A stretch of DNA of 64,000 nt from an uncultured bacterium. GTDB taxonomy: Bacteria; Chloroflexota; UBA5177; JANWHV01. Of this stretch, positions 7,078 to 61,111 are shown piece by piece. The notes under the pieces are model-generated. The model worked only from the letters and a program-made list of their open reading frames with translations. It searched no databases and was not told the DNA's origin. Numbering within the stretch: the first letter of the stretch is position 1; each line of letters starts with the position of its first letter. The DNA is taken from the NCBI GenBank assembly GCA_963729625.1, contig CAVSOU010000011.1:608001-672000 (forward strand). The letters are read 5' to 3'. A program made the translations under genes and the position numbers.

Positions 7078-7689
7078 TTCACGACCCTCGACACACATGA
7101 TGGGATCGGCGTCGTTGAGGTGCAGGATCTTTTGACTGGGGACGAGATCGAGGAAACCAAGCACTGCGTCTTCGCTCGCGGGACGAACGTGAAGCACTCG
7201 TACAGCACGACGGCCTACGAGAACCTCGACATCTATCAGCTGAACAGCACGTACTACTGAGCCATCGGCAACGATGACGCGGCGTATCTGCTGGCGCGGG
7301 CCGCGCAGTTCTTCACGCCCGGCATGCAGGTGTACTACGTGGGCTTGCTGGCTGGAGAGAACGATGTCGACTTGGTAGAACGGACGCTGGTCGGGCCAGA
7401 TATCAACCGCCACGCGTACACGCGGGAGGAGATCGAGCGCAGTCTGTCCAGGCCGGTCGTGAAGCAGTTGTTCTCGCTAATGCGCTTCAGGAATAGTTAT
7501 CTGGCGTTCGATGGGACGTGCGATGTGCAGGAGGAAGGCCCGGACGAGAATTTGCAGATCGAATGGCAGCATGGAGTGTCCACCGCAGCGCTGCACGCCG
7601 ATCTCAAGAGGCGCAGCTATGTGATAACGTACTTTGAGCCCGGGCTTGACAGGCGTGTGCAGCTGGCCGATGTGTGGGGTGACAATTGA
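7075..7689 (+). pseudogene. Sucrose phosphorylase family (GH13_18) C-terminal fragment with a nonsense codon
   Basis: [12 protein letters not shown]...[25 protein letters not shown]...QVYYVGLLAGEND...INRHAYTREEI; in-frame TGA at 7258-7260; 5' half absent. Confidence 0.9.
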
Positions 7690-7990
7690 CTGGCCAAGCC
7701 CACGTCCAGAGATCCGGGCTGTCCCAATCCGCGTGCACATCGGTGAGCAGGGTCGTAACACGCACGTCACTGCTATGCGGTATCGGGCTGAGCACAGGAA
7801 GCAGGCCCTGAGGCCCCGGACGGACCGCTCCGATCACTATCGCGAAGTCAACAGTCTCCGCATCCACATAAAGGCGGAAGCCGCCTGCCACTGTGGCTGT
7901 CGGTGCGGGCGTGCAACCAGACTGTGCGCCGCCATGTTGCGATCGCGTGTTTCATCTAGCGGCAGTGGCACGACTGTCGTAGCGCCAGCT

Positions 7991-8075
7991 GTGTTTGCGT
8001 GGACCTGCGACGTACTATTGCGTGCGGACTGTGCGTGCATCTTCGTCGACACGTCGCTGATCGCATGGCGATAAT
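7991..8075 (+). promoter_or_regulatory. Promoter A: TGCGTG box array plus sigma70-like -35/-10
   Basis: TGCGTG at 7996, 8019, 8032; TCGACA 8046-8051 and GATAAT 8070-8075; colinear with 12466-12550. Confidence 0.75.
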
Positions 8076-8188
8076 GCGCAGGTAGGGTGGGCTTTCCGCA
8101 CATACGATGCGCCATACGAGATTCCATGCGACGGGCATGCGGATAGTTGCCTCGAGAATATGTCGTGCGAGGTCGGTGGAGGACCGAA

Positions 8189-9322
8189 ATGAAGGATGTG
8201 CTAGGAGTTGGTGTCCTCGGATGCGGCGATATCGCGCAGACCATGTACCTACAGGGCATTAATGCGCTCGAAGATGAAGGCGTTTGCCGGCTGGTGGCAA
8301 TCTGCGATACGGACGCCTCGCGGCTGTCGCAAGCAGCGGCGCGGTTTGCCGGCGCGCGAGCCTACGCAGATTGCGATGGGATGCTTGCCGATCCGAACGT
8401 TCACGTGGTCGTTAATCTGACGCCTAATCAGGCCCATGCCGCCTGCTCGCTGAAAGCGATTGCCTCTGGCAGACATCTCTATACCGAGAAGCCGATCGCG
8501 ACGACGATGGACGACGCAGACCGCGTGATTGACTCCGCCGCCGAACAGGGCATAACGCTGGTGTGCGCGCCGGTGATCCTCCTCCATCCGGAAGTGCGCC
8601 AAGCGGTAGAGTGGGTCAAGAATGGCAGCCTGGGCAAGGTGGCGCTTGCCCGTGCTCGTGCCTCGCACGGTGGGCCCGCACGGCTCTACGATTTCACAAC
8701 TGATCCGACCTGGTTCTACAAGGAAGGGGGCGGACCACTGTTCGACCTAGCGGTATACCCGATCTCGGTATTGTGCGCGATGCTCGGGCCCGTGCGCCAC
8801 GTCTCGGCATTCGCTGGTATCTCTTCACCAGAGCTTACCGTGCGGTCCGGCATTGCGAAAGGAAAGACGATTCATGTCGAAGTCCCGGACAACGTCCCGA
8901 TGATGCTCGATTTCGGCAACGCGACCTTCGCCATTATAGATGCGGCGTTCACCGTACTCTCAGCGAAAGGGCCGCGAATGGAGATCTACGGCGATAAGGG
9001 AACTCTCAATCTCTATTCGCGCCCAGAGGACCCTCCATACGAGCGGTACGTGGACGATCCGGAGAAAGGTGTGCGCGGCTGGCTCCAGCACGAGCTGTCG
9101 TACCGCGGCTCAGCGATTCCATATTTCGGTGCGCCGACGCATACTTCGTGGTCATTCGCCCAGGGCGTGCGGCACCTGATCGAGTGCGTGGTTGGTAACG
9201 CCAAGCCGATCCCAAGCGGCGAGCTGGCCCGCCACGTCCTCGAGATCATTCTGGCTGCCATGGAATCGGCACGCTCCGGTCGTGCAGTGGAACTGCGGAC
9301 GCGCTTTGACTTGGCATGGTGA
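8189..9322 (+). CDS. Gfo/Idh/MocA family oxidoreductase
   Basis: VGVLGCGDIA, LTPNQAH, EKPIA, GGGPLFDLAVY; GGAGG RBS. Confidence 0.93.
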   Translation: MKDVLGVGVLGCGDIAQTMYLQGINALEDEGVCRLVAICDTDASRLSQAAARFAGARAYADCDGMLADPNVHVVVNLTPNQAHAACSLKAIASGRHLYTEKPIATTMDDADRVIDSAAEQGITLVCAPVILLHPEVRQAVEWVKNGSLGKVALARARASHGGPARLYDFTTDPTWFYKEGGGPLFDLAVYPISVLCAMLGPVRHVSAFAGISSPELTVRSGIAKGKTIHVEVPDNVPMMLDFGNATFAIIDAAFTVLSAKGPRMEIYGDKGTLNLYSRPEDPPYERYVDDPEKGVRGWLQHELSYRGSAIPYFGAPTHTSWSFAQGVRHLIECVVGNAKPIPSGELARHVLEIILAAMESARSGRAVELRTRFDLAW

Positions 9323-9329
9323 AGCGTGG

Positions 9330-12300
9330 CTACTCACCCAGCATTCTGGGCAGGTCGCCCGCAATGGTCTTCGCGATACGATCGGCTTCCAACCGGGCCC
9401 CCAGCCGCTCGAAGATACCAAGACTCGCTTCAAGACATTGCCGTGCCTTGTGCGGCTCTCCCCGGTCAGCATAGTACAGCGCATACACCTGCAACGTGCG
9501 TGCCTCGACGTGAGCGTACGGCATGCTGCGCGTCAGAGACAGGGCTTCGGACAGCGATCGCTCTGCCTCAACCCAGTTGCGCGAGCGTGTCAAGACAAGT
9601 GCCTGAACCTGCAACGCATGGGCCAGCGCGATCCGATCGTTGCCAGCGCGTGCGGTCGACAGAGCCTTAGCTGCGATGTCTACTGCGCGCCCAATCTCGC
9701 CCACCTCTGCGCTCGCCCAAGCCAAGGTCTTGAGCAGGATCGGATCCTCCAGCTCCTCCAGGCCCGGCCGCTCCAGCAGCGGGACCAGCCGCGCGTACGC
9801 CGCCTGACTGTTTCCCGAAATCAGATCGCGCTCAGCAAGCATCCACTGTGCCATATGCAGCAAGGCGAGATCATCGCTAGTCGCCGCTACGGCCCAGCAC
9901 TCGTCCAAGTAGCGTGACGCCTCTTCAGACCGTCCTTCAAGTGCGCAAAGGAGTCCGAGCGAGGCGAGGGGTGCAGTGAACCCCCATGACACGCCGATGT
10001 GCCGGTTGATAGCTACTGCTCTCTCAAAATCCGTGCGTGCTTGGGGCCAGTCGCCGCAAAACAGCGCAATGCATCCACGATTGCGCACGGCGTAAGCGAT
10101 TTGCACGGGGTCGCCTAGCTTGTCGGCAACCGCAAGGGCACGATCCGTACTCACCCTGGCTCGATACACGTCGCCTAGATACATACACACTACAGCCTGG
10201 CTACTGAGAGCGCGACTCAGCGTGTCAACGTCGTTCACGTCCTCGGCTAGGCGGCCTGCGTCCTCAAGTACCGGCAGCGCCTCTTCGAGGCGGTCCATCA
10301 TCCAGAGCGCGTACCCTCTGCTAGCCAACGCCCTGGCTAGAACCACCTTGTCATGCACAGCGCGCGCGAGAGCGGCCGCCCGGTCCGCCGCTACTAGCTG
10401 TTCTTTGTATTGACCGCTCCCATATAACAGCCGCGCAAGGGCCACATAGAGCGCTGCTAGGCCCCGCGAGGGCTCGCTGGCTTCAAGCAAATGCAGCAGC
10501 GGTTTCAACCGCAGGACTCCCTCCTCTGGGTACCCGCGCTCTGCATGCACCCAGCCGATTTGCGCCGCTACGCGCCGCATGCCCTCTATGCCTCCTGCCC
10601 TACGATAGCTGTCTTCGGCCTCCCCGAGCACGTGCAACGCTGCCGTATACTGCGCAACAGTAGAAAGCACTGCGCCGAGCTTCTCCCTCACGCGCGCTGC
10701 ATCGAGGGGCCGATTCATCGCGTCCAGCCGATGCACTAGTTCCCGGAAGTGGGCTTCTGCCGTACCGTTGGCACCCTGTGACTGTGCATGGTCACCGGCG
10801 CGCTCAAGATAAAGCGCTGCTTCAGCATGAGCGTCACTGCTCATGAAGTGATATGCCAATAGCTCAGAGGACGGCCGAATCTGGCTCCGCGCCAGGATTT
10901 CAGCCAAACGCTGGTGCAGGACCTTCTGCCGCGCCACACCGAGATCGGCCTCGACAACCTCGCGGATGACGTCATGTGCAAACTCGCATCCATCCTCCCC
11001 AGCGTATTTGAGCAAGCGTGCGTGCTGTGCTGCATCCAGAGCATTTACGACGTCTTCCTGTGGTCGGTTCACCATGGCAAAGAGCAGTTCATATGGCACC
11101 GTTCGCCCCACCGTCGCCGCCACAGCGAGCACCTCGCGTCCCGTTGCTGACAGTGCAGCAACACGCTGACGGATGCTCTGACGTAGGTCCCATGGCACAC
11201 TTTCTTCGCCATGTCCATTGGCCGTGCTCATTTGCAGGTTTTGCGCATAACTCACGAGGAAGAACGGAATGCCTCCGGACCGACCCAGTACACTGTTGCG
11301 GAGCTTTCGTTGCTGTTCCGGCAAGCCACGCACCAGGTGGTCCAACAGCTGACCAGCCGCCGCACCATCCAGAGGCAGCACGGCAGTGTGTGCGGCCAAC
11401 CCGGCCTGTGCTAGCTCGCCAAGAGTGTTCCAAAGCGGATCGCTGTCATGCACCTCAGTGTCACGATACGTCCCGATCACTCGTAGAGGAATCTCGGGCG
11501 CAGAGCGGGCCAGTGCCCCGAGCAACGCGAGCGCATCCAGTCCCGCCCACTGCAGATCATCCAGAAGCAGAAGGGCGCCGGTCGCCCCTGCAATATTGGA
11601 CAGAAATCGTGCTACCGCTGCGAACAGCAAACGGCGCACCTGCTCGGATGGCAGCGAATCGGTCGTGTACGGAGCGGTGTCGAAAACCCCATCCGCTAGC
11701 TCGGGCAGCAACTGCCAAAGCCAGAAGCACCCACATAGATCCGCACGTAGTTTGGTTGGATTCTGGCAGCGGATGTAGGACTCAAGTGCTTCCAAGACTG
11801 GCGCGTACGGTCCTTGACCCCCAGGGCGTTGACATCCACCCCGAAGTACCCGCATATTTCGACGCGTCGCTAAGTGTGCCACCTCGTCTAGCAGACGCGT
11901 CTTTCCAATACCTGGTTCCCCTGCAAGGAGAAGGATAGGTGGGCCCTCCCCTCGAACGTGGTGCTCCAGCCGAGCCATCTCGTATGTACGCCCAACCAAC
12001 GGGAGAGCGCTGAAGCTGGGTCGCAGCCCAGAGGACGCCTCCGGCACTCGTGCCACCGACTCTCCGTAGCCCTGGACAGCGACCTTGGTTGTCGAGCGTG
12101 ATGAAGGGGACTGACGCCTTGGGCGCTGCGCCGCGTCCTCGAGAGCTAGGCGATCCAACCCGGGTATTGGAAGCGCCGTGGCAAGACGAGCAACCGTGCT
12201 CTTCTGGGGAACGCTCCGACGTCCGCACTCGAGATCGCTAATACCGCGTGCGCTCATTCCGGACCGTTCGGCAAGCTCCTGCTGCGTTAGGCGAGAAGCG

Positions 12301-12371
12301 ATCCGGTATCGCTTCAGCAAGTCTCCGAACGCGGGGGAAGAATTGGGACCAGTGTCTAGTCGGATCTCCAT
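9330..12371 (-). CDS. XRE-HTH / AAA ATPase / TPR (STAND-class) transcriptional regulator
   Basis: FGDLLKRYR...LTQQELAERSG..ISDLE; LVGR; Walker A GEPGIGKT; Walker B LLLDDLQWA; FAHDVIRE; long TPR-like C-terminus without a LuxR HTH. Confidence 0.92.
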   Translation of the reverse strand: MEIRLDTGPNSSPAFGDLLKRYRIASRLTQQELAERSGMSARGISDLECGRRSVPQKSTVARLATALPIPGLDRLALEDAAQRPRRQSPSSRSTTKVAVQGYGESVARVPEASSGLRPSFSALPLVGRTYEMARLEHHVRGEGPPILLLAGEPGIGKTRLLDEVAHLATRRNMRVLRGGCQRPGGQGPYAPVLEALESYIRCQNPTKLRADLCGCFWLWQLLPELADGVFDTAPYTTDSLPSEQVRRLLFAAVARFLSNIAGATGALLLLDDLQWAGLDALALLGALARSAPEIPLRVIGTYRDTEVHDSDPLWNTLGELAQAGLAAHTAVLPLDGAAAGQLLDHLVRGLPEQQRKLRNSVLGRSGGIPFFLVSYAQNLQMSTANGHGEESVPWDLRQSIRQRVAALSATGREVLAVAATVGRTVPYELLFAMVNRPQEDVVNALDAAQHARLLKYAGEDGCEFAHDVIREVVEADLGVARQKVLHQRLAEILARSQIRPSSELLAYHFMSSDAHAEAALYLERAGDHAQSQGANGTAEAHFRELVHRLDAMNRPLDAARVREKLGAVLSTVAQYTAALHVLGEAEDSYRRAGGIEGMRRVAAQIGWVHAERGYPEEGVLRLKPLLHLLEASEPSRGLAALYVALARLLYGSGQYKEQLVAADRAAALARAVHDKVVLARALASRGYALWMMDRLEEALPVLEDAGRLAEDVNDVDTLSRALSSQAVVCMYLGDVYRARVSTDRALAVADKLGDPVQIAYAVRNRGCIALFCGDWPQARTDFERAVAINRHIGVSWGFTAPLASLGLLCALEGRSEEASRYLDECWAVAATSDDLALLHMAQWMLAERDLISGNSQAAYARLVPLLERPGLEELEDPILLKTLAWASAEVGEIGRAVDIAAKALSTARAGNDRIALAHALQVQALVLTRSRNWVEAERSLSEALSLTRSMPYAHVEARTLQVYALYYADRGEPHKARQCLEASLGIFERLGARLEADRIAKTIAGDLPRMLGE

Positions 12372-12465
12372 TATTCGTGCTGCCGACTGCCTGCGTTATC
12401 CTGGTCAGAACGACTAAGCCACACGCCGTCGCTTGTCGGATCATACCATGCGAATCGCGCAACTC

Positions 12466-12550
12466 GTGTTTGCGTGCATCCGCCTCGTGCAATTGCGTGG
12501 GGCAAGTGCGTGTATCTTCGTCGACCTACCGCACTCAGCGCAGCGATAAT
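12466..12550 (+). promoter_or_regulatory. Promoter B: TGCGTG box array plus sigma70-like -35/-10
   Basis: TGCGTG at 12471, 12494, 12507; ATCTTCGTCGAC 12514-12525; GCGATAAT 12543-12550; same spacing as 7991-8075. Confidence 0.75.
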
Positions 12551-12827
12551 TGGGTGATAGGCTGGACTGTCCACGGCTGCATGCTGGCATCCGACATGCT
12601 GCAATCGGACGGGACAGCATTCGAGGCCATCACTAGAATGAGCAGAGGAGGTGTATCACAGCCACAGTTCGGCTAGGTCAGCACAGACAACGCTGTAGAG
12701 ACAGCCTTCTAAGGCAGTAATCGCAATCTTGAGGAGGCCCTTGACCGTGGAGCACAATGAGCGCATCACATCGTCGTCTTCCCTGATTCCGTCGCACGGG
12801 CCCGAAGAGCTAACCGGCGACAACGAC

Positions 12828-14174
12828 ATGACTTCTTCCACCTCAATCAGCCGGCGCGCGCTCTTGACCACCGGCGCCAAGGTTGCCGCTGGGCTGGCAG
12901 GTGGAGGCGTAGCATTGGCCGCCATGCCGCCCTCGGTGCTCGCGGACCGAGATCGCATGCGTAGCATCGCTGTCCTCCGCAAGCCGGCGGTAACACTGAA
13001 TTTCACGTTCTTCGGCAACGTTGGCGAGGGTGGAACCTGGGAGCAACTCGCGAAAATGTTCCACGCGCAGAATCCGAACATCACCGTGAAAGTTGTCCCG
13101 GTTCCTGCCACGGCGTGGAGCGAGTACTTTCAGAAGGTCTTGACCATGATCGCCGGCGGAAACTCGCCGGATATCTGCCGCATCGCCACGGAAGGGGCCA
13201 AGCTCTTCGCGGCGAAAGATCTTGCGTTGCCGCTGGATGACTTCATCAAGCGCGACGCCAAAGTGATGGACGACTACCTCAGCGATGTGAGTCCGAAGCT
13301 GACCGAAACGTTCAAGTACAACGGCAAGACGTTGGCACTGCCATTCGAGTGGAACGACTGGCTGATCACCTACAATACTAAGGTCTTTCGGCAGGCCGGT
13401 GTCGCCGCCCCCAAGGCCAACTGGACTAGCGATGATTTTCTTGCCGCCGCAAAGAAGATCACCAAAGGTAGTGTCTACGGCTGCAATCTGTGGCAAGCCC
13501 CTGGCACGTTCTATATTTCGGGCTGGCTGACCGCTGCGGGCGGGGGGCTGCTAAACAAGGATTGGACTAAGTCCAACGCTACGAACCCGGTTAACATCAA
13601 GGCGATGCAGTTCGTACAGGATCTGGTCTGGAAAAATAAGGTCGCGCCGCGCCCCGGCTCACCGGACTTCCCGCTGCTGGAGGCCGGAAGGGTCGGCATG
13701 ATTACAGCCGGCCGCTGGGCAGTGAACACCTTCATTCTGGCGAAATGGAATGACTACAACGTGCAGCTCGCGCCGATCCTCGGGCCCGGGCGCAAAACGA
13801 CGTTCGGCGTGGGTGCCCACCCCATCCTGAAGAATGCCAAGTATCCCGAGGAGGCGTGGACCTTCCTGAAGTACCTCTCGACACGGCCCGCCATGGCCTA
13901 CACGACGAAGAATGGGTACAGCAATCCGTCCCGCCGCTCAGTGGCGAACGACCCCAGCCTGATGGTCCCGCCCGGCAACCCTGGCGAGAATTGGCGTGCC
14001 TATTACGGTGCGCTGGATTCGGCCGAGTCTCTCCCGGCCCCAGCACAGTTCAATGAGATGGAGTCGGCACTCATCGCCGCATACACCAAGATGATCGCGA
14101 ATGAGACGACCCCAGCCCAGATGCTGCAGAGCCTCGATTCGCAGATCAACACTATCCTGGCAAAGCCGGTCTAG
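12828..14174 (+). CDS. Carbohydrate ABC transporter substrate-binding protein, Tat signal
   Basis: SRRALL twin-arginine motif; NPNITVK, IAGGNSPDI, YNTKVFRQAGV, KYPEEAWTFLKYL; start codon uncertain. Confidence 0.92.
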   Translation: MTSSTSISRRALLTTGAKVAAGLAGGGVALAAMPPSVLADRDRMRSIAVLRKPAVTLNFTFFGNVGEGGTWEQLAKMFHAQNPNITVKVVPVPATAWSEYFQKVLTMIAGGNSPDICRIATEGAKLFAAKDLALPLDDFIKRDAKVMDDYLSDVSPKLTETFKYNGKTLALPFEWNDWLITYNTKVFRQAGVAAPKANWTSDDFLAAAKKITKGSVYGCNLWQAPGTFYISGWLTAAGGGLLNKDWTKSNATNPVNIKAMQFVQDLVWKNKVAPRPGSPDFPLLEAGRVGMITAGRWAVNTFILAKWNDYNVQLAPILGPGRKTTFGVGAHPILKNAKYPEEAWTFLKYLSTRPAMAYTTKNGYSNPSRRSVANDPSLMVPPGNPGENWRAYYGALDSAESLPAPAQFNEMESALIAAYTKMIANETTPAQMLQSLDSQINTILAKPV

Positions 14175-14319
14175 CCGTCCGGCGCCATCGGTTATCGGTG
14201 CCATAGGCAACACTCGCAAGCGTCGCTACGCAAAACCTGCTTGAGGCGGCGAACTCTGATGCTGCAAGCGAGGTGGCGAGTGTTGCCTATGGCGGGGTCA
14301 ATCGAGGTCAGGCAGGGGT

Positions 14320-15270
14320 GTGGGAGGAAGAGCTGTGGGGTCCGACGTTCACGCACACCAGATTAGACCCGTTGGTGCTCCCAATGGCAGCCGTCGAGGG
14401 TGGCGAGCGTCGATCCGGCCTTATCTCTTCATTGTGCCCAGCGCGCTGCTCTTCCTGGCGTTCGTGGCCGGCCCCATGGTAGCCAGTTTTGTGATCTCGT
14501 TCTTCAGCTGGGACGGCATGTCGGCGGCTCATTTTGTCGGATTAGATAACTACGCGACTTTCCGCGGCGATGCACTGCTCCATACTGTGCTGGTCAACAC
14601 CTTTGTCTTCGTGATCGGCTCCGTTGCACTGAAAATGGTGCTGGCACTCCTGTCGGCTGTGCTAATCAACCGCTACGTGCCCCGGATTCTGCGTGCAGCA
14701 TTCCGAGCAGTCGTGTTCTTCCCAGTGATCATTTCCGGAGTGGCGATTGGCCTGATCTGGCTCTGGCTGATGAATACCAGCCTGGGGATCATCAATTACG
14801 TGCTCGGCATGGCTGGTGTGCCCGGTGTTGCGTGGTTGGACTCAAGCGACCATGCCCTCGGTTCCCTCATCCTGGTGGACGTATGGCGCAGTGTAGGATT
14901 CTCCTTCGTGATCTTTACTGCTGGACTGCAGGGTATTCCAGCCCAGCTGTATGAAGCGGCTGCAATTGACGGGGCTAATGGCTGGCAGCAGTTTCGCACC
15001 GTCACACTGCCCCTGTTGTCGCCCACAACGTTCTTCCTGTTGGTGATTAATCTGATTGGTGCATTTCAGTTCTTCGATCTCTCCTACGTGATGACGCACG
15101 CAGGACCGGGAGACGCCACGCGCACCATTGTGTACTACATCTACGACACTGCCTTTCAGTATTTCCGGTTCGGCTACGGCTCGGCGGTTGCCATGCTACT
15201 CTTCGCGATCCTCATCGTGTTGACATTCCTCCAAGTGGGAATGAGTCGCCGCTGGGTGTTTTACCATTAG
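14320..15270 (+). CDS. Carbohydrate ABC transporter permease (MalF-like)
   Basis: FVGLDNY, EAA motif LYEAAAIDGA, TLPLLSPT. Confidence 0.95.
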   Translation: MGGRAVGSDVHAHQIRPVGAPNGSRRGWRASIRPYLFIVPSALLFLAFVAGPMVASFVISFFSWDGMSAAHFVGLDNYATFRGDALLHTVLVNTFVFVIGSVALKMVLALLSAVLINRYVPRILRAAFRAVVFFPVIISGVAIGLIWLWLMNTSLGIINYVLGMAGVPGVAWLDSSDHALGSLILVDVWRSVGFSFVIFTAGLQGIPAQLYEAAAIDGANGWQQFRTVTLPLLSPTTFFLLVINLIGAFQFFDLSYVMTHAGPGDATRTIVYYIYDTAFQYFRFGYGSAVAMLLFAILIVLTFLQVGMSRRWVFYH

Positions 15271-15314
15271 AAAGCCGCGACACGCGTTCGCGCCCGTGCT
15301 GGGGGACAATTCCG

Positions 15315-16202
15315 ATGAGCACCTCTGTTCCCGGTGGCCACACCGCGCACCGATGGGGTACCTCGAGCGCCGCCGCAGCTCTTCGCCTGCTGCGTGCCGC
15401 TCCGGTGTACCTGGTATTGGCGCTGATTATTGCGCTTATCGTGGCACCCTTCCTGTGGATGGTGTCTAGCGCGTTCAAGGACCAGACGGCGATCTATGCA
15501 AGCCCGCCGGAATGGATCCCTTCAGCGCCGACCACGGTAAATTTCTTCGACGCTTGGACACAAGTTCCGTTTGGCTGGTTCTTGACCAACAGCTTGAAAG
15601 TGGCCACATCGATCACCGTCGGGCAGTTGATTACCTGCTCCCTGGCGGCCTATGCCTTCGCACGCCTACGCTTTCCCGGAAGGGAGATCATCTTCGGCAT
15701 CTACTTGTCGTCGCTGATGGTGCCTAGCCAGGTGACCATCATTCCTCAATTCATCCTGATGCGTCACCTAGGCTTGATCGATAACCATGCGTCACTGATA
15801 CTCCCGGGACTTGCGAGCGCCTTCGGCACGTTCCTGCTGCGCCAGTTCTTCATGACCGTGCCGAGAGAGCTGGAAGAGGCGGCAATCATAGACGGCTGCG
15901 GACTGCTGGGCGTGTTGCTGTATGTAATTCTGCCTCTCTCTGTATCGGCGCTGGCGGCTTTAGCGATATTTACGTTCAATGGTGCCTGGAACGACTTCTT
16001 CAATCCCCTGATCTTTCTAAGCTCGCCTCAGAACCTTACGCTTCCAGCCGGCCTGGCGTTGCTGCAGGGGCAGTTCTCAGCGACCAGCCCTGCGATCATG
16101 CTGGCGGGCGTTTGTATGGCTGTCCTCCCCGTGCTGTTTGTATTCATGATCGGCCAGCGCTACATCGTGGAAGGAATCACTATGACAGGACTCAAAGGCT
16201 GA
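15315..16202 (+). CDS. Carbohydrate ABC transporter permease (MalG-like)
   Basis: AAYAFARLRFPGR, ELEEAAIIDG, WNDFFNP, EGITMTGLKG. Confidence 0.95.
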   Translation: MSTSVPGGHTAHRWGTSSAAAALRLLRAAPVYLVLALIIALIVAPFLWMVSSAFKDQTAIYASPPEWIPSAPTTVNFFDAWTQVPFGWFLTNSLKVATSITVGQLITCSLAAYAFARLRFPGREIIFGIYLSSLMVPSQVTIIPQFILMRHLGLIDNHASLILPGLASAFGTFLLRQFFMTVPRELEEAAIIDGCGLLGVLLYVILPLSVSALAALAIFTFNGAWNDFFNPLIFLSSPQNLTLPAGLALLQGQFSATSPAIMLAGVCMAVLPVLFVFMIGQRYIVEGITMTGLKG

Positions 16203-16357
16203 AGGAGCTGGCCGGCGGCCTGCTTGACGCCTGAACCCGGCACGGGGATGCCGAGAGATCGCGCAGTCAGTCAAATCCGGCGCCTAGCGGAGGTTCTTCG
16301 GCTTAGGCTGCCCTGCACCTGAGTCGACCGAGGAAGCAGGAATCTGGTGAGGCATAG

Positions 16358-17308
16358 ATGACGTACATGGCAGCACAAACGCTACCGCTCCAGGCCATTG
16401 GTCGCGATGGACAGTTGGTGTCGCGGATTGCACTTGGATGCATGGGCCTCTCTGGAACGCAGAATCCTGCGGGTATCACGCAGGGCCTCAGACGCAACGC
16501 CATCTTGGCCTTTGAAGCGGCGTTGGATGCTGGCATCACCTTCTTTGATCATGCGGATATCTACGGTGGCGGCAGTTGCGAGGAGGTATTCAAGGAATGC
16601 TTGGCTGCTGTTCCAGGGTCCCGACAGCGTATTGTCATAGCCACCAAGGGCGGCATTCGCTCCGGCTATTACGACCTTAGTGCTCCTTGCATTACGTCAT
16701 GCGTAGAGCAGTCGCTTACTCGCATGGGCATCGACTACATCGACCTATACCAGCTTCATCGGCCGGACCCGCTCACGCACCCGGGCGAGGCCGCCGGTGC
16801 CTTAAACGATCTGTTACGCCGCGCACTCATTCGGTCCGTGGGTGTGAGCAATTACTATCCTGAGCAGGTGCGTGCACTTCAGGGTTTCCTCGACGTACCC
16901 TTATGCAGCAATCAGATCGAGATCAGCCTCCTCCGCCTGGATCCCCTCTACGAGGGTGTGGATGGCGGCGATGGCACCCTCGACTATTGTATGGCGACGG
17001 GCATGACACCATTGGCGTGGAGCCCACTGGGGGGCGGCGCGCTGATGGGGGGCACCAGGCGTGAAGCCGACCAGTCACGTGTCGAGCGCGTTCGCGCTGC
17101 GCTTACCGCGCTCGCACCGACCTACGACGCTACACCAGCTCAACTGGCATTGGCGTGGCTGTTGGCCCATCCCTCCGGCATTCTGCCCCTCGTGGGTAGT
17201 ACCAGTCCTCGCCATATCGGCGAGGCAGCTGGAGCGGCCAAACTCGTTCTGACCCGCGAGGACTGGTATCGCCTGTGGATCGCTGCACGGGGGCGTGAGG
17301 TGCCATAG
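16358..17308 (+). CDS. Aldo/keto reductase (YdhF/YcsN-like)
   Basis: FDHADIYGGG, DYIDLYQLHRPDPL, GVSNY, AWSPLGGG. Confidence 0.93.
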   Translation: MTYMAAQTLPLQAIGRDGQLVSRIALGCMGLSGTQNPAGITQGLRRNAILAFEAALDAGITFFDHADIYGGGSCEEVFKECLAAVPGSRQRIVIATKGGIRSGYYDLSAPCITSCVEQSLTRMGIDYIDLYQLHRPDPLTHPGEAAGALNDLLRRALIRSVGVSNYYPEQVRALQGFLDVPLCSNQIEISLLRLDPLYEGVDGGDGTLDYCMATGMTPLAWSPLGGGALMGGTRREADQSRVERVRAALTALAPTYDATPAQLALAWLLAHPSGILPLVGSTSPRHIGEAAGAAKLVLTREDWYRLWIAARGREVP

Positions 17309-17376
17309 AGAGGATCGGCGTGTGAAGAAGGCGCGCACCGACACCAGCAATCGTTACATGCACCGGCATCCTGTTT

Positions 17377-17433
17377 GTCGACAGACTATGTGACGAGACG
17401 CGACTTCTCTGGCGTGGCGACATAGCTGTCGAC
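17377..17433. repeat. Intergenic inverted repeat / stem-loop
   Basis: GTCGACAGACTATGT ... ACATAGCTGTCGAC, 14-bp stem with one bulge; no U-tract. Confidence 0.45.
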
Positions 17434-17528
17434 TCCGTGATCGTGTCACACGTGAGCGGTGTCTGTTTGGACTACTGATTCGCAGGGTACTGGGGTGATT
17501 CGAGGAAGTGTCTCATAAGAGGTTATCC

Positions 17529-18695
17529 ATGGAACAGCGTTCGACTACGACACAACCTGTTCGCGTAGCAATCATCGGCGCATCCGCGCGTTCCGACTAC
17601 ATATACGGCCCAATACTCAAGGCACTACCGAAGGACGTAGAATTGGTAGCGGTCTGGGGCCGCAGCGAGGAATCGGCGCGGCGGCGCGGTGCGAGCCTCC
17701 AGGTGCCCTGGTACACCGACATGGATCGCTTGGCTCGCGAAACGGAGCCGCAGATCGGCGTAGTGTCCGTGGCCGCCGAGGCGAATGGCCAGGTGGGCCT
17801 CATGGCCGTCGAGCACGGCTTGCACGTACTCCTGGAGACGCCTATCGCCCACAAGCTTCGCGAGGCTGACAACATTATCGCCGCCGCTGCGCACCGCGGC
17901 GTCAAGATCGAGGTTGCTGAACAGTTCCACCGTCGGCCTCTCGAGCAGATCAAGTTACGGCTGATCGCCTCAGGACTCTTCGGGCGCGTCTATACAGCGT
18001 TTAATGACTTTGCAGGCCATGGCTACCATGGTGTAAGCGTGCTGCGCAGCTACTTGGGATTCGACGCTGTGCCGGCCCAGGTGACCGGTGCGGTGCGCTC
18101 CTTCGACCTGGCGCCACACTGGTCGCGACTGGCCGAAACCAGGGGGCCACGTACGGAAACACAGGAGTATGGCCTTATCGAATTCGCCGACGATCGGTTA
18201 GGCATTTTCCAATGGACCGACGTGGGCTATGACTCGGCACTGCGGTGGTGGCGCAGTAGCCGGTTCTTGGCGGAGAAGGGTATGGGTATCAGCGTGGGCG
18301 TCGGAATTGAGGTGGACGAGCGCTTATCGCTCCTGGCACCGGGCGATGAGGCACCACGTTTCATCACGCTGGAACGACGGTGGGAGCGGAATGATGGCGG
18401 TGCCCTCGTGGCACTTGTCGCACACACAGGCGATCCCGATCAGCCTCTCGTACGATGGGACAATCCGTTCGCCTCGAAGGTCAGGGGCCACGGTGTGCAA
18501 TGGCATGATGACGAGATCGGCGTCGCCAGTTGTCTGATGAGCCTGATCACAGCGGTGCGGGAAGGCGTCAAGCCGAGCTACGGTGCGGACCAGGCACGGC
18601 TGGATCAGGAGATTGTCCTGGCTATACGCCAATCGTCATGTGACGGTGGCCGGCCGGTCGCCCTCCCCTTGGATCCGGACACGGAGATCCTGTAA
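17529..18695 (+). CDS. Gfo/Idh/MocA family oxidoreductase (divergent)
   Basis: VRVAIIGASAR, HVLLETPIA (EKP variant), IEVAEQF, YHGVSVLR. Confidence 0.85.
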   Translation: MEQRSTTTQPVRVAIIGASARSDYIYGPILKALPKDVELVAVWGRSEESARRRGASLQVPWYTDMDRLARETEPQIGVVSVAAEANGQVGLMAVEHGLHVLLETPIAHKLREADNIIAAAAHRGVKIEVAEQFHRRPLEQIKLRLIASGLFGRVYTAFNDFAGHGYHGVSVLRSYLGFDAVPAQVTGAVRSFDLAPHWSRLAETRGPRTETQEYGLIEFADDRLGIFQWTDVGYDSALRWWRSSRFLAEKGMGISVGVGIEVDERLSLLAPGDEAPRFITLERRWERNDGGALVALVAHTGDPDQPLVRWDNPFASKVRGHGVQWHDDEIGVASCLMSLITAVREGVKPSYGADQARLDQEIVLAIRQSSCDGGRPVALPLDPDTEIL

Positions 18696-18943
18696 GGCAG
18701 CTCGATGGAAAGCTGTGTGACTGCCGATTCGCGCAAACGCTGTGCACTTGCAGGGCAAGGGCCAGGCGTTCACCTATTTTGGTCAGCGGCGCACGGTTCT
18801 TACTGACTGATGGCCTGGTTCTCGCTCCATATCGGCTGCTGTGGTTGGTCCCCAGTGACGCTCTGTGATCGATGCCGCGTGATGCAGACGGACGCAACCG
18901 GCTCCAATACGCGGGTAAAGAAACACAATGAGGAGACGCAAGC

Positions 18944-20308
18944 ATGGAAACCGGAACGAGGGGCGACCTTCTAGCGGGTCTCACCCACTGGCGCGAGGCA
19001 CGCAGCGCCCGTGCCTCAAGCTGGGATCCTAGCGGTCGTAACCAGGACAACTGGATCATTCCGCCTGGAGAAAGCATCGTACTGGCCGACATTGAAGGGC
19101 CTGGTTGCATCACGCACATCTGGATGACACAGTTCTGTCGCCGTGTGCTTGGGCCTAGCCTACTCAACCCGGTGCAGGTGGGTCAGACGGTACCTGTTTT
19201 GGAGATACATAACGCGCTTGGTCTGAACTGGGAGGCACCTGATCCCGACTACTATCGCAAGGTGCTTTTCAAGATCTATTGGGACGACCAGGAGCACCCA
19301 GGCGTGCTGGCTCCCTTGGGCGACTTTTTCTGTATCGGGCACTCAGTGCCCGGGAACTTCGCCTCGACCCCCTTCACGGTCTCTTCCAAAGAAGGGGAGC
19401 GGCACACTTTCGGCGGGACTGCGGCGCTCAACTGCTACCTACAGATGCCGTTCAATGCGCGTGCGCGAATCGAGATCGAGAACCAGAACGACATCCCGTA
19501 CGGACAGTACTTTTACATTGACTACGAACTGTACAAGGAGCCGCTGGCGGCCGACGTTGTCTATTTGCACGCGCAGTGGCGACGCGAGAATCCGTGCTCG
19601 GGATGGGCTCCAGATATCCAGGTCAACAGTCCCGAGGCCAATGTCGTGAACCTCGACGGCAAAGACAACTATGTGCTTCTGGAAGCAGAAGGTCGTGGCC
19701 ACTACATCGGGTGCAATCTCTCGGTGAACCACTTCCAGGGCAGCTGGTGGGGTGAAGGCGACGACATGATCTTCATCGATGGCGAAGACTGGCCGCCCAG
19801 TCTACATGGCACCGGCAGCGAGGACTACTTCGGCCATGCCTGGGGTATGCAAACGAACGCGTATCCTACGAATGGGTCCATCCTGCACGAGAGCGTCATG
19901 CCCGGCTATCAGGTGAGCTATCGCTTCCACTTGGCGGACCCAGTGCGGTTCCAGAGAGGCATCCGCGTCACGATGGAACACGGACACGGCAATCACTTAT
20001 CCGATGACTGGTCATCCACCGCGTATTGGTATCAGTCACTGCCGTCCAAACCATTTACCATTCTTCCAGTTGAACAACGCCTGCCTATCCACCCGACCTT
20101 TTCGGCAGTGCCCGCAGGCGGGGCCGGCCCGATCGGCACTGTGGAACTGAATGACGAGATGCGCAGAATGCGTGCCAGCCAGCAAGAGCGCTACGCCACG
20201 TATCTGGAAAACCGCAATGCCGTGCTTGATAGACGGATCGAGGACACACGCATGCGGTCAGAGTTGAACCGCGAACATGCTCAGCGGATCCGGCGCGCGT
20301 TCCGCTGA
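18944..20308 (+). CDS. Glycoside hydrolase family 172 (DUF2961)
   Basis: SSWDPSGRNQD, GPGCITHIWMT, PLGDFF, WWGEGDDMIFIDG, HGTGSEDYF, YRFHLADP. Confidence 0.9.
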   Translation: METGTRGDLLAGLTHWREARSARASSWDPSGRNQDNWIIPPGESIVLADIEGPGCITHIWMTQFCRRVLGPSLLNPVQVGQTVPVLEIHNALGLNWEAPDPDYYRKVLFKIYWDDQEHPGVLAPLGDFFCIGHSVPGNFASTPFTVSSKEGERHTFGGTAALNCYLQMPFNARARIEIENQNDIPYGQYFYIDYELYKEPLAADVVYLHAQWRRENPCSGWAPDIQVNSPEANVVNLDGKDNYVLLEAEGRGHYIGCNLSVNHFQGSWWGEGDDMIFIDGEDWPPSLHGTGSEDYFGHAWGMQTNAYPTNGSILHESVMPGYQVSYRFHLADPVRFQRGIRVTMEHGHGNHLSDDWSSTAYWYQSLPSKPFTILPVEQRLPIHPTFSAVPAGGAGPIGTVELNDEMRRMRASQQERYATYLENRNAVLDRRIEDTRMRSELNREHAQRIRRAFR

Positions 20309-20546
20309 GGTCTTCCAGCAACGAGTCTAGACCGAATGCCCCCATCCCACGTGTCGGCCCTGCTGTATGAACGCGAATCCAGAGTATACCCGGTAGACGA
20401 TGCGGTTGCCGTACGTTGGGCAATTCATGTAGCAATGACTGACCAGAGGGCACCGTGCGCAGGAATATGCCTCGAATTACTATGGGCGGAGATTCTGACG
20501 GGTGAGCGCAGACCGCGTCGACTCGGCTCGATGGTAGGAGGAATCT

Positions 20547-22064
20547 ATGATTGATGCTGATAGACCTCGTTGTCACCTCACAGCGCCGGCCGGGTGGATG
20601 AACGATCCAAACGGCGCAATTCAGTGGAAGGGCCGCTACCACATCTTCTACCAGCACAACCCAGAGGGTCCGTATTGGGGGTCCATCCACTGGGGACATG
20701 CGGTGAGCTACGATCTCGCCCACTGGACGCATCTTCCCGTGGCTTTAGCGCCAACGCCCAACAGTCCTGATGCGAACGGATGCTGGTCGGGTTACGCGGT
20801 GGTGCAGGATGGCGTTCCGCATCTGATGTACACGGGCGTTCGCAAGAGCCCAACCGGGGACTACTGCCAATCGCAGTGCATCGCCAGCAGTAACGACGAC
20901 CTACTTACCTGGAACAAGGCGCCCGACAACCCGGTCATCGCCGCGCCCCCAGACGGGATGAAGGTCCTGGGCTTCCGAGACCCCTTTGTATGGAGAGAAG
21001 GCGCTCACTGGTACTGTATTCTAGGCACAAGCGTCTTGGGCGTGGGGCCAGCCGCCTTCCTGTACACGTCGACTGACCTGCGTCATTGGGACTATCTCAA
21101 GCCCCTGCTTGTGGGCGACGTCAGGCAGACTTCGCCAGTCTGGACTGGCTCCCAATGGGAGTGTCCTCAGTTCATTCCTCTGGGCGAAAAGTATGTCCTC
21201 CTTGTCGGAATCTGTGACGACGTTGGCCCGCGCTTCAGCACTGCCTACTTCGTTGGCACGTATGCCAATCAGACGTTCGTGCCGGAGGCGGTGAGGAGGT
21301 TCGACCTTGGCCCGGACTATTACGCTCCAATGGCCATGCGCGACGACACCGGGAGAACACTCCTTTGGGGCTGGGTGCGCGAGGCCCGATCTACGCGCGA
21401 CCAGCAGGTTCTCTGGCAGGACAGTCCGGCCCAGCGGCAAGCGGGCTGGGCTGGCGTGCTAAGTGTGCCCCGCGTGCTCACCTTACGCACCGATGGTCTG
21501 CTTGGGGTGGCGCCTGCGCCCGAGCTGGAGTTGCTGCGCGCCCACCACTGGCGACGCACCCACCTCGACCTGACCCCAGCTTCGCGCCATCTACTCCAAG
21601 ACATCAGCGGAGACTGCCTGGAGATAGCTGCGGTCATCGACATGGGTGAGGCTGACGTGTGCGGCATGAAGGTGCGGTGCTCGCCCGATGACGAGGAGCA
21701 AACCGTGATCTCGTACTCCAAATCTGCACAGGAACTTAGTATTGATAGGACCCGGTCGAGCCGCAACCTCGAGGCCGTGGGCGCTCGCGAGGGCGGCACG
21801 CTCGTGCTATATGACCATGAGCCTTTGACCCTGCGCGTGTTTCTCGACCGCTCGATCATTGAGGTGTTTGCCAACGAGCGCGCGTGCCTGACCGCACGCA
21901 TCTACCCCACGCGGCCCGATAGCCTCGGCTTCGATCTGTTTGCCGTAGGTAGGCGCGCCCACGCCGAGTACATCGACGTCTGGACTCTAGAGGTTGGCGA
22001 TGACGCTAACTCAAGAGGCGCCGATAAAGCGACTGCAGGCAGCGCAGGTTCGGTCGATATCTGA
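20547..22064 (+). CDS. Glycoside hydrolase family 32 (beta-fructofuranosidase / sucrose-6-phosphate hydrolase), cytoplasmic
   Basis: WMNDPNG, WGHAVS, WSG, FRDP, WECP, C-terminal DRSIIEVF. Confidence 0.95.
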   Translation: MIDADRPRCHLTAPAGWMNDPNGAIQWKGRYHIFYQHNPEGPYWGSIHWGHAVSYDLAHWTHLPVALAPTPNSPDANGCWSGYAVVQDGVPHLMYTGVRKSPTGDYCQSQCIASSNDDLLTWNKAPDNPVIAAPPDGMKVLGFRDPFVWREGAHWYCILGTSVLGVGPAAFLYTSTDLRHWDYLKPLLVGDVRQTSPVWTGSQWECPQFIPLGEKYVLLVGICDDVGPRFSTAYFVGTYANQTFVPEAVRRFDLGPDYYAPMAMRDDTGRTLLWGWVREARSTRDQQVLWQDSPAQRQAGWAGVLSVPRVLTLRTDGLLGVAPAPELELLRAHHWRRTHLDLTPASRHLLQDISGDCLEIAAVIDMGEADVCGMKVRCSPDDEEQTVISYSKSAQELSIDRTRSSRNLEAVGAREGGTLVLYDHEPLTLRVFLDRSIIEVFANERACLTARIYPTRPDSLGFDLFAVGRRAHAEYIDVWTLEVGDDANSRGADKATAGSAGSVDI

Positions 22065-57573: not shown

Positions 57574-57692
57574 AGGAGACCCCTCTCCGGCAATATGACA
57601 CCTTATTCCCGCCGTTCGGCTGCCACTCGCTCTGCTTACGGAATGCGGGGCGGAATTGTGCCGAACTGAATCGCCCTCTCGCGGCGCTATCG

Positions 57693-59012: not shown

Positions 59013-59115
59013 TCCTTCCCCCTCCAGCGGGGATCCTGCTGCGGCCACCACCGCGTGCTACAGGTATCCATACGCGCATGGGGCCACGCTCGCGGTCGCA
59101 CATGCAGAGCAATAG

Positions 59116-59997: not shown

Positions 59998-60010
59998 GGG
60001 CCGCTCCTTC

Positions 60011-60904: not shown

Positions 60905-61038
60905 CGTCTATTCTCCCTTCTCCTGGCGGATCACGCTCGCCGCCAGACCTACGCTGTGGCACGCAGCACCTTGTCCGCCGGATCTGGGCTTCAGTGTACT
61001 ACCTGCGCTTCCACAGCATTGATTTCCTGCTCGCCAGG

Positions 61039-61076: not shown

Positions 61077-61111
61077 TCCGGCCCAGTTAACGGAGGTCTG
61101 CCGCTAACCGG

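What the first reader, a model, noticed from the sequence alone, without database searches (positions are those of the whole stretch)
7991..12550. Twin colinear promoters with TGCGTG box arrays flank an XRE-HTH/STAND regulator: a candidate MalT-like regulon with readable operators
Seen: 7991-8075 and 12466-12550 align without gaps over 85 bp (about 61 identities by hand count). Conservation concentrates in GTGTTTGCGTG, CGT(A/G)C, ATTGCGTG, GTGCGTG, ATCTTCGTCGAC and GCGATAAT, while the spacers have diverged. The CGT cores sit 13/10/13 bp apart directly upstream of a TCGAC(A/C)-18bp-GATAAT promoter. One copy precedes the Gfo/Idh/MocA gene and the other the sugar ABC operon, with the 1013-aa XRE-AAA-TPR gene between them. 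Established: MalT, a STAND ATPase, oligomerises on inducer binding and activates promoters through arrays of asymmetric direct-repeat boxes, using a C-terminal LuxR HTH. Inference: this protein is an architecturally inverted analogue (N-terminal XRE HTH) that senses a sugar and binds these boxes. I know of no described operator for this regulator class. A minus-strand TATGAT at 12440-12445 would put the regulator's own -35 under the first box, suggesting autoregulation.
Basis: partly seen in the sequence, partly recalled or inferred. Interest (0 to 1): 0.85.

Follow-up and report, generated by a model that had tools for sequence, protein, structure and literature searches.

The report
Twin promoters sharing TGCGTG box arrays
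Two promoters on either side of a large sensor-type regulator gene in a Chloroflexota sugar-use locus carry the same array of short repeated DNA boxes, which makes them a good but untested candidate for that regulator's binding sites.

Summary
Positions 7991-8075 and 12466-12550 align without gaps at 61 of 85 bases. This is the best direct 85-mer pair in the 64-kb window; the next best is 51 of 85.

Both copies hold three exact TGCGTG boxes at identical offsets (0, +23, +36) and two weaker CGT-core boxes, giving spacings of 13/10/13/10. A fully conserved ATCTTCGTCGAC block contains a -35-like hexamer, followed by an 18-bp spacer and GATAAT.

One copy faces a Gfo/Idh/MocA gene. The other faces an ABC/GH172/GH32 operon. 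The only regulator gene in the locus lies between them. It encodes a 1013-aa protein with an XRE HTH, a disordered linker, a STAND NTPase module and a TPR sensor. Its best structural match is the STAND transcription factor PH0952.

The shared cis-regulatory module is well supported. That this protein binds the boxes rests only on adjacency:
- Orthologous DNA could not be fetched.
- 80 loci of distant relatives lack the array.
- A contig-length proxy gave no sign of conserved synteny.
- The autoregulation idea is weak, because there is no -35.

STAND regulators with an N-terminal DNA-binding domain are already known (GutR, AfsR, PH0952). This is a plausible new variant of a known kind and worth a bench test.

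The parts
7982..8100 (+). Promoter unit P1 (copy A): box array, -35, -10 and about 20 nt past the likely start site. It faces the Gfo/Idh/MocA gene.
   Evidence: 81 of 119 identical to 12457-12575. nhmmer profile E 3.9e-33. Lies in non-coding DNA: the overlapping ORF 7634-8074 has GC2 0.59, against 0.43-0.51 in the real genes.
7996..8001 (+). Box 1, TGCGTG (within GTGTTTGCGTG)
   Evidence: Exact in both copies
8011..8015 (+). Box 2, weak: CGTAC (CGTGC in copy B)
8019..8024 (+). Box 3, TGCGTG (within ATTGCGTG)
8032..8037 (+). Box 4, TGCGTG (within GTGCGTG)
8039..8051 (+). ATCTTCGTCGAC block, 12 of 12 conserved. Holds the fifth CGT core (8044) and the -35-like TCGACA (8046-8051).
8070..8075 (+). 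-10-like GATAAT, 18 bp after the -35-like hexamer
   Evidence: 10 of 12 to consensus
8189..9322 (+). Gfo/Idh/MocA oxidoreductase gene, 377 aa. ATG 8189 follows GGTGGAGGA.
   Evidence: Pfam PF01408, PF22725, PF02894. Frame checked.
9330..12371 (-). Regulator gene, 1013 aa. XRE HTH (residues 14-82), disordered linker (85-121), STAND NTPase module (about 124-495; Walker A GEPGIGKT 151-158; LLLLDDLQW 267-275), TPR sensor (about 500-1012).
12457..12575 (+). Promoter unit P2 (copy B). TGCGTG at 12471, 12494, 12507; CGTGC at 12486; ATCTTCGTCGAC at 12514-12525; TCGACC at 12521-12526; GATAAT at 12545-12550. It faces the ABC operon and lies in the divergent intergenic region shared with the regulator gene.
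12747..22064 (+). Putative operon behind P2: solute-binding protein (12747-14174), two permeases (14320-15270, 15315-16202), aldo-keto reductase (16358-17308), second Gfo/Idh/MocA (17508-18695), DUF2961/GH172 (18944-20308), GH32 beta-fructosidase-like (20547-22064).
   Evidence: DUF2961 = GH172 from the search listing.

Best explanation
The two units are paralogous sigma-70-type promoters that share one upstream control module. The module is an array of same-strand TGCGTG boxes: three exact and two degenerate, with CGT cores 13/10/13/10 bp apart. The last box is fused to the -35 region. The module puts a stand-alone Gfo/Idh/MocA dehydrogenase gene and an ABC-transporter/GH172/GH32 operon under common control. 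The operon probably handles fructose-containing oligosaccharides.

The most likely reader of the boxes is the XRE-HTH/STAND/TPR protein encoded between the two promoters. The inferred mechanism follows the known STAND logic of MalT, GutR and AfsR. In the resting state the protein is a closed, ADP-bound monomer. A ligand bound by the TPR sensor, together with ATP, opens the NTPase module and drives multimerisation. This brings several N-terminal HTH domains together. Each HTH hangs on a flexible linker of about 37 residues, so they can bind the irregularly spaced direct repeats cooperatively. From the promoter-proximal box at the -35 they would help RNA polymerase.

Shown: the DNA anatomy, its non-chance duplication, the promoter-like hexamers, and the protein's domain architecture and fold.

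Inferred: who binds the boxes, activation rather than repression, the inducer, and the start sites.

The confidence given is for the whole chain. For the shared cis-regulatory module alone I would put it at about 0.8.
For: - DNA: 61 of 85 ungapped identity, the best pair in the window, with 51 of 85 next. A 56-position consensus has 2 matches against 0 expected. The only TGCGTG pairs and triples in 64 kb are these arrays, at identical offsets. An nhmmer profile of the unit finds only these two copies in the window plus 80 loci.
- Promoter-like hexamers are called at the same place in both copies. Both copies are intergenic and point into the first gene of a transcription unit.
- No Rfam family lies in 7300-12900, so the unit is not a known riboswitch or sRNA.
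- The ATCTTCGTCGAC block is conserved 12 of 12, which is longer than a -35 hexamer needs.
- The regulator is the only DNA-binding protein found among the ORFs scanned from 8189 to 22064.
- Its architecture: HTH_31 E 1.2e-12, AAA_16 E 8.8e-21, TPR_12 E 1.6e-16. The model has pLDDT 86 and a disordered 85-121 linker. The top fold match is PH0952, a STAND-TPR predicted transcription factor (6mfv), followed by Avs3, Apaf-1 and CED-4.
- No antiphage Avs family matches in PADLOC; only generic HTH and TPR models hit.
- Literature: inducer plus ATP activation of MalT and GutR, and AfsR/SARP binding to direct repeats that overlap the -35 (PMC10936776, abstract and passages). Oligomerisation is needed for cooperative MalT binding to promoter sites (PMC10427625, passages).
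Against: - No evidence of binding. The link is adjacency in one genome.
- No phylogenetic footprint.
- None of the 80 loci has a TGCGTG triple, and only 1 has a pair within 30 bp, in 1.27 Mb.
- The 16 loci of fuller-length relatives (40-44% identity in the closest) were checked for direct twin-promoter similarity around the regulator, and 11 of them also in inverted orientation. None shows it.
- The neighbours of 10 such relatives are Ser/Thr kinases, patatin, ATP-grasp, ABC exporters and one GH3, not sugar-uptake operons.
- The four closest regulator relatives (70% in the alignment) sit on contigs of 13371, 21609, 20527 and 26745 bp. No SBP relative (68 listed) or Gfo relative (120 listed) reports any of these lengths. 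Conserved linkage is therefore not evident, although this is an indirect proxy.
- The promoters already match the consensus at 10 of 12 and 9 of 12. That is better than typical activator-dependent promoters and fits repression as well as activation.
- XRE HTH proteins usually bind inverted repeats as dimers; these boxes are direct repeats.
- The block pattern of conservation is only marginally non-random with two copies (p about 0.05).
Confidence: 0.42

Rival explanations
1. The shared module is real, but a different transcription factor encoded elsewhere reads it, for example a global carbon regulator or an alternative sigma factor. The neighbouring XRE-STAND protein would then control something else.
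For: Relatives of this protein family sit in very varied, mostly non-sugar contexts. The closest relatives show no sign of linkage to the SBP or the Gfo gene. Only 64 kb of the genome could be searched for further copies.
Against: Both copies flank this gene and no other regulator gene lies from 8189 to 22064. The array is absent from the other sugar loci of the window, for example the LacI-linked ABC locus at 56.5-63.9 kb.
Confidence: 0.25
2. The XRE-STAND protein binds the boxes but as a repressor, or as a dual regulator. It would occlude the -35 and the upstream region of two promoters that are strong on their own.
For: The hexamers match the consensus at 10 of 12 and 9 of 12. Boxes 4 and 5 abut or overlap the -35. 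From general knowledge, many XRE-family proteins are repressors; the weak PDB sequence hits to the HTH are an immunity repressor and Stl.
Against: In the known STAND regulators the ligand-bound multimer is the DNA-binding form (PMC10427625 passages; PMC10936776). Repression would then shut a catabolic operon off when its substrate is present. The 18-bp spacer and the non-TTG -35 leave room for activation.
Confidence: 0.12
3. The similarity is a decaying relic of an old promoter duplication with no shared operator. Only the -35 and -10 are constrained, and the TGCGTG boxes survive by chance.
For: There are only two copies. Clustering of mismatches is marginal (p = 0.051 and 0.055). Triples of some hexamer are common (25 in 64 kb).
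Against: Three exact TGCGTG at identical offsets are kept in both copies, while the spacers between them have diverged. Conservation runs 50-80 bp upstream of the -35, where a bare promoter needs nothing. By the top-five-runs statistic p = 0.006.
Confidence: 0.1
4. The unit is a small mobile or genome-wide repeat (MITE-like), or the att-like ends of an inserted 4.5-kb segment.
For: Direct repeats bracket a gfo-plus-regulator segment. Transposase genes lie at 22464-23699 and 28763-29926.
Against: There are only 2 copies in 64 kb and none in 1.27 Mb of relatives' loci. No inverted-repeat arms are reported at these coordinates. No integrase lies inside the segment. Identity of 72% concentrated in promoter-like blocks is unlike att cores.
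Confidence: 0.03

Closest known systems
MalT (E. coli maltose regulon activator; STAND)
   Same: It is a STAND NTPase with a TPR-like sensor. Inducer and ATP drive multimerisation, which allows cooperative binding to several sites in target promoters (PMC10427625 passages). Here 3 of the 4 closest relatives carry the MalT-like TPR Pfam family. The target genes are for sugar uptake and breakdown.
   Different: The DNA-binding domain here is an N-terminal XRE HTH, not a C-terminal LuxR-type HTH. The box sequence is unrelated. MalT did not appear among the listed fold or sequence matches. Binding here is untested.
AfsR and other large SARPs (Streptomyces)
   Same: An N-terminal DNA-binding domain is followed by a NOD and a TPR region. 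Targets are same-strand direct repeats that reach the -35 (PMC10936776 abstract and introduction).
   Different: SARPs use an OmpR-type winged helix plus BTAD, and neither was found here. The NCBIfam AfsR model hits only the TPR region, at 44.6 bits against a cutoff of 1430. SARP repeats are 11 or 22 bp apart with the last one 8 bp from the -10. Here the spacings are 13/10 (23) bp, and the last strong box ends 32 bp before the -10.
GutR (Bacillus subtilis glucitol activator)
   Same: It is a sugar-alcohol-sensing STAND activator with an N-terminal HTH and a nucleotide-binding domain, activated by inducer and then ATP (PMC1524751 passage; PMC10936776 discussion). It is the nearest functional precedent for an N-terminal-HTH STAND that controls sugar catabolism.
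   Different: Sequence relatedness and HTH type were not tested, because the GutR sequence was not fetched. The primary GutR papers were not held. From recall only, its site is an imperfect inverted repeat upstream of the -35, not a direct-repeat array.
PH0952 (Pyrococcus horikoshii STAND with TPR sensor, PDB 6mfv)
   Same: It is the best structural match of the model (E 4.4e-13). [quoted passage not shown]
   Different: Its effector domain is ArsR-like, not XRE. It is archaeal. Identity is 14%. In the passages read it is called only a predicted transcription factor and no DNA target is given.
RRNPP regulators (PlcR, Rgg, ComR, NprR)
   Same: An N-terminal XRE HTH is fused to a C-terminal TPR sensor (PMC5131891, abstract seen in the listing).
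   Different: They have no NTPase module between the HTH and the TPR region. They sense peptides. From recall, their sites are palindromic boxes.

Membership tests
STAND NTPases | P-loop NTPase core with Walker A and Walker B | tested here: met
   GEPGIGKT at 151-158 and LLLLDDLQW at 267-275 in the translation. G151, P153, G154, G156, K157, D271 and D272 are invariant in 70 homologues. AAA_16 E 8.8e-21.
STAND NTPases | NBD-HD-WHD module followed by a repeat sensor, with a fold like Apaf-1/CED-4/MalT-type proteins | tested here: met
   The model has pLDDT 86 and pTM 0.70. Foldseek hits: 6mfv PH0952 E 4.4e-13, Avs3 8dgc, Apaf-1 1z6t/3shf, CED-4 4m9s. TM-scores are low (0.17-0.31 by query length) because domain orientations differ.
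STAND NTPases | Ligand- and ATP-dependent multimerisation | not testable with these tools
   Needs biochemistry.
MalT family / LAL regulators | C-terminal LuxR (GerE)-type HTH | tested here: not met
   No GerE/LuxR hit. The only HTH is N-terminal: HTH_31/HTH_3, residues 14-74.
MalT family / LAL regulators | MalT-like TPR/superhelical sensor (Pfam PF17874) | tested here: inconclusive
   The window's protein has no PF17874 hit at E <= 0.001. 3 of its 4 closest relatives, and many of the 120 listed, carry it in precomputed Pfam.
XRE (Cro/C1-type) HTH family | Pfam HTH_31 / HTH_3 domain above the gathering score | tested here: met
   HTH_31 48.4 bits (cutoff 27) and HTH_3 34.6 bits (cutoff 23). 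Five short helices at 15-82 in the model.
SARP (AfsR-type) | OmpR-type winged-helix DNA-binding domain plus BTAD | tested here: not met
   No Trans_reg_C or BTAD hit. The AfsR equivalog scores 44.6 bits against a cutoff of 1430, over the TPR region only.
RRNPP quorum-sensing regulators | XRE HTH directly fused to the TPR sensor, with no NTPase | tested here: not met
   A STAND NTPase module of about 370 residues lies between the HTH and the TPR region.
Antiphage Avs/STAND defence proteins | Match to a defence STAND model, with an enzymatic or pore-forming effector domain | tested here: not met
   PADLOC gives only generic HTH (HTH_VI, capH, RmrA) and TPR hits with E >= 1e-7, and no Avs model.
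MITE / dispersed repeat | Many copies, terminal inverted repeats | tested here: not met
   2 copies in 64 kb and 0 in 80 relatives' loci. No inverted arms at these sites. The whole genome was not available.
Activator-dependent (class II-like) promoter | Activator site overlapping the -35; mapped start site; dependence on the activator | tested here: inconclusive
   The fifth box and the conserved block overlap the -35-like hexamer. The hexamers are already 10 of 12 and 9 of 12 to consensus. Start sites and dependence on the protein were not testable.

The most novel reading that the evidence does not exclude
XRE-HTH/STAND/TPR proteins form a very large family, mostly from Chloroflexota: more than 4400 hits at E <= 0.001 among the 8000 candidates scored. 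My searches found no characterised member. Under the boldest reading they are ligand- and ATP-gated activators whose tethered HTH domains read arrays of same-strand hexamer repeats ending at the -35. This locus would then give the first operator (TGCGTG, offsets 0/+23/+36) and a tractable regulon, with a fructose-oligosaccharide or difructose-anhydride inducer. An XRE-type HTH working on direct repeats through STAND multimerisation, rather than on palindromes as a dimer, would be a new DNA-recognition mode for that fold.
Probability: 0.3. Interest if true: 0.7.

Novelty: new variant of a known kind. Interest (0 to 1): 0.45.

Why it matters
STAND transcription factors are understood mainly through MalT, AfsR and a little of GutR. 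The XRE-headed form found here is abundant in Chloroflexota, and the relatives fetched include Actinomycetota. Three literature searches found no study of it.

A pair of short, readable, near-identical promoters next to such a gene is a ready substrate for EMSA, footprinting and reporter work. It would tie a DNA motif, a ligand class and a regulon to the family. It would also test whether an XRE HTH can be used on direct repeats.

If the boxes belong to another factor, the finding is an ordinary two-promoter regulon.

Tried and rejected
- Orthologous footprinting. 
- Exact box-pair patterns in the 80 loci: 0 of 80 for both patterns. TGCGTG triples 0 and pairs 1. nhmmer gave one insignificant hit, E = 0.82, in L017.
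- Twin-promoter similarity around 16 relatives' regulator genes, direct orientation, and 11 of them inverted as well. The top pairs were coding paralogy: kinase domains in L004 and tandem regulator C-termini in L009.
- tblastn of the regulator against plasmids: 104 records, all below 60% identity, none covering 80% of the query.
- Rfam on 7300-12900 at E <= 1: 0 matches.
- Palindrome reading of the boxes. Copy B has GCAATTGC between boxes 2 and 3, but copy A does not (GTACTATTGC). The direct-repeat reading is kept (by eye).
- A possible extra distal array at 7903-7962 scores 32 of 60 against copy B, which is at background (30-31). Dropped.
- Synteny by contig-length matching: no shared lengths. 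Indirect only.
- The GutR primary papers PMC205503 and PMC205502 are not held. What is said about the GutR site is recalled.
- Complex prediction was not used, because no protein-protein claim is made.
Full report
**What is in the sequence**

Positions 7991-8075 and 12466-12550 match at 61 of 85 positions without gaps. I compared every direct offset in the 64-kb window. This is the best 85-mer pair, and the next four score 51, 51, 50 and 50. The repeat finder lists it as the longest direct-repeat family. The similarity runs a little further on both sides: 7982-8100 against 12457-12575 gives 81 of 119.

Each copy holds the following:
- Three exact TGCGTG hexamers on the same strand at offsets 0, +23 and +36 (7996/8019/8032 and 12471/12494/12507).
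- A weaker CGTAC/CGTGC box between the first two.
- A 12-of-12 conserved ATCTTCGTCGAC block.
- A -35-like hexamer inside that block (TCGACA or TCGACC), then an 18-bp spacer and GATAAT.

The CGT cores fall at 7998, 8011, 8021, 8034 and 8044. Put another way, there are two and a half turns of a 23-bp unit.

**Is it more than chance?**

- A 56-position consensus of the two copies has 2 matches in the window against 0.00 expected in 100 shuffles.
- Of the 68 TGCGTG in the window, the only pairs within 30 bp and the only triples within 60 bp are the two arrays.
- An nhmmer profile of the unit finds only the two copies, at E 8e-34 and 4e-33.
- The controls matter. TTGCGTG alone (15 against 11.8 expected) and a loose 13-bp-spaced pair (15 against 14.8) are not enriched. 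Triples of some hexamer are common, 25 in 64 kb. The signal is the same array twice with identical geometry.
- With only two copies, the impression that identities sit in blocks and mismatches in spacers is just marginally significant. The p value is 0.051 by squared run lengths, 0.006 by the five longest runs, and 0.055 on the extended span.

**Setting**

Both units are non-coding. The ORF 7634-8074 that overlaps copy A has a second-position GC of 0.59, against 0.43-0.51 in the real genes.

Copy A points into a Gfo/Idh/MocA oxidoreductase gene. Its start is ATG 8189, behind GGTGGAGGA, not the TTG at 8147.

Copy B points into a solute-binding protein gene. This is followed by two permeases, an aldo-keto reductase, a second and only distantly related Gfo/Idh/MocA gene, a DUF2961 protein and a GH32 enzyme. 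DUF2961 is glycoside hydrolase family GH172, whose known members include an alpha-fructofuranosidase/difructose-dianhydride enzyme and D-arabinofuranosidases (titles and abstracts in the listing). Together with GH32 this suggests fructose-containing oligosaccharides, but the substrate is not established.

The leaders would be about 107 nt and 190 nt long. No Rfam family matches them.

**The regulator**

The 1013-aa ORF on the minus strand (12371-9330) lies between the two units. It carries HTH_31/HTH_3 at residues 14-74, AAA_16 at 124-299 and TPR repeats. Walker A (GEPGIGKT) and an hhhhDD Walker B are intact and invariant among 70 homologues.

An AlphaFold model built on that alignment has mean pLDDT 86. 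It shows five short helices at 15-82, a disordered stretch at 85-121, an alpha/beta NTPase module with helical and winged-helix parts up to about residue 495, and then a continuous TPR solenoid.

Its best PDB match is PH0952 (6mfv, E 4.4e-13), the STAND-with-TPR-sensor protein. Avs3, Apaf-1 and CED-4 follow. So the STAND assignment is supported.

PADLOC gives no Avs-type match, only generic HTH and TPR hits.

The family is very large. More than 4400 hits reached E <= 0.001 among the 8000 candidates scored. Those that carry a name are called Chloroflexota, and many carry the MalT-like TPR Pfam family.

**Does this protein read the boxes?**

This part is inference.

For it:
- The gene is the only regulator gene found between 8189 and 22064.
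- It sits exactly between the two copies.
- The array occurs nowhere else in the window, not even at the other sugar loci.

Against it, or at least not for it:
- I could not obtain orthologous DNA. The metagenome collection that holds the roughly 71% relatives was closed.
- None of the 80 loci (1.27 Mb) has the array.
- None of the 16 fuller-length relatives' loci examined shows any twin-promoter similarity around the regulator gene.
- The neighbours of 10 of these relatives are Ser/Thr kinases, patatin-like lipases, ATP-grasp enzymes, ABC exporters and one GH3. The family as a whole is not a sugar-operon regulator family.
- As an indirect synteny test I compared the contig lengths that the protein searches report. 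The four closest regulator relatives sit on contigs of 13371, 21609, 20527 and 26745 bp. None of the 68 SBP relatives or the 120 listed Gfo relatives reports those lengths. The 81-85% SBP relatives sit on contigs of 137607, 5653 and 1775 bp, and no listed regulator relative reports those. This gives no sign of conserved linkage, though the proxy is crude.
- In the HTH, the positions that vary among paralogues are 41, 43 and 51-58, around the presumed recognition helix. That would allow each paralogue its own site, but this is only compatible with the model, not evidence for it.

**Mechanism**

The geometry consists of same-strand repeats, with the last one fused to the -35, lying about 35 to 85 bp upstream of the likely start. 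It resembles what is known for STAND activators:
- MalT needs inducer- and ATP-driven oligomerisation to bind cooperatively to several promoter sites (PMC10427625, passages).
- SARPs, including AfsR, bind direct repeats that overlap the -35 (PMC10936776, abstract and introduction).
- GutR is activated by glucitol and then ATP (PMC10936776 discussion).

A disordered tether of about 37 residues between the HTH and the NTPase module would let HTH domains of a multimer reach boxes 10-13 bp apart.

Two things fit less well. XRE HTH domains usually act as dimers on palindromes. And both promoters are already close to the consensus, at 10 of 12 and 9 of 12, which would suit repression as well. I therefore keep activation as the preferred but uncertain reading.

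**Autoregulation**

The minus-strand TATGAT at 12445-12440 is there. However, the hexamers 16-18 bp upstream of it (CACGAG and neighbours) do not resemble a -35, and the scan does not call this promoter. It calls instead a minus-strand TGGACA-16-AATTAT at 12573-12546, back to back with the -10 of copy B. The regulator's own promoter is thus unknown, and autoregulation is an open guess.

**Comparison and novelty**

The protein is not a MalT-family member, because it has no C-terminal LuxR HTH. It is not a SARP, because it has no OmpR-type domain and no BTAD; the AfsR model scores 44.6 bits against a cutoff of 1430. It is not an RRNPP regulator, because an NTPase module is inserted.

A STAND regulator with an N-terminal DNA-binding domain is not new in kind. 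PH0952 has an ArsR-like one (PMC6468293), AfsR a SARP domain, and GutR an HTH (PMC1524751).

Three full-text searches for XRE-headed STAND regulators or their operators found nothing relevant: 71 papers, 15 listed, none on this class; 6 papers, none relevant; 0 papers. The GutR primary papers were not held, so what I say about its binding site is recalled.

**Verdict**

This is a real, well-defined shared control module. A plausible but unproven assignment links it to an uncharacterised variant of a known regulator kind.

Noticed in passing
window 8081-8100 and 12556-12575: The similarity continues past the -10 into the first ~20 transcribed bases (TAGGnTGGnCTnTCCnC, 14 of 20). Copy B holds a perfect 5-1-5 palindrome TGGACtGTCCA at 12563-12573; copy A does not. 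It could be a second operator at the start site or part of the leader.
   Followed up: partly
window 9330-12371 (-): The public protein collection holds this gene only as an 821-aa form that starts at residue 193 (P0002). That form lacks the HTH and the Walker A motif. The full 1013-aa frame is open in the window, and the closest relatives cover it from the N-terminus. This is probably a start-codon miscall.
   Followed up: partly
window 36636-37244 (+): A 202-aa protein combining an XRE HTH (HTH_31) with a TIR domain (TIR_2). It is an unusual small fusion, possibly a signalling or defence gene.
   Followed up: no
window 22464-23699 (+) and 28763-29926 (-): Two DDE transposase genes lie just downstream of the GH32 gene. 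They mark the end of the sugar locus and suggest local rearrangement.
   Followed up: no
window 7324-7689 (+): A 121-aa ORF has gene-like codon-position GC (0.62/0.36/0.75) but no Pfam match. About 500 bp of non-coding DNA lie between it and the Gfo gene.
   Followed up: partly
window 16202-16358, 17308-17508, 18695-18944, 20308-20547: Gaps of 150-250 bp separate the later genes of the putative operon, so internal promoters are possible. None of the gaps carries the box array.
   Followed up: partly
L001 5099-17906 and L004 5252-17774: Two Ktedonobacterales relatives of the regulator (43-44% identity) sit in the same conserved cluster: patatin-like lipase, a Ser/Thr kinase of about 1070 aa, the XRE-STAND gene, an ATP-grasp protein, and an ABC exporter fused to an FHA or cNMP-binding domain. 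This context is quite different from the window's.
   Followed up: partly
L009 4399-7452 and 7775-10858: Two XRE-STAND-TPR genes lie in tandem on one strand.
   Followed up: no
window 56512-63872: A second sugar locus on the minus strand holds GH43, a GH30/59-like enzyme, two permeases, an SBP and a LacI-family regulator. It has no TGCGTG array.
   Followed up: no
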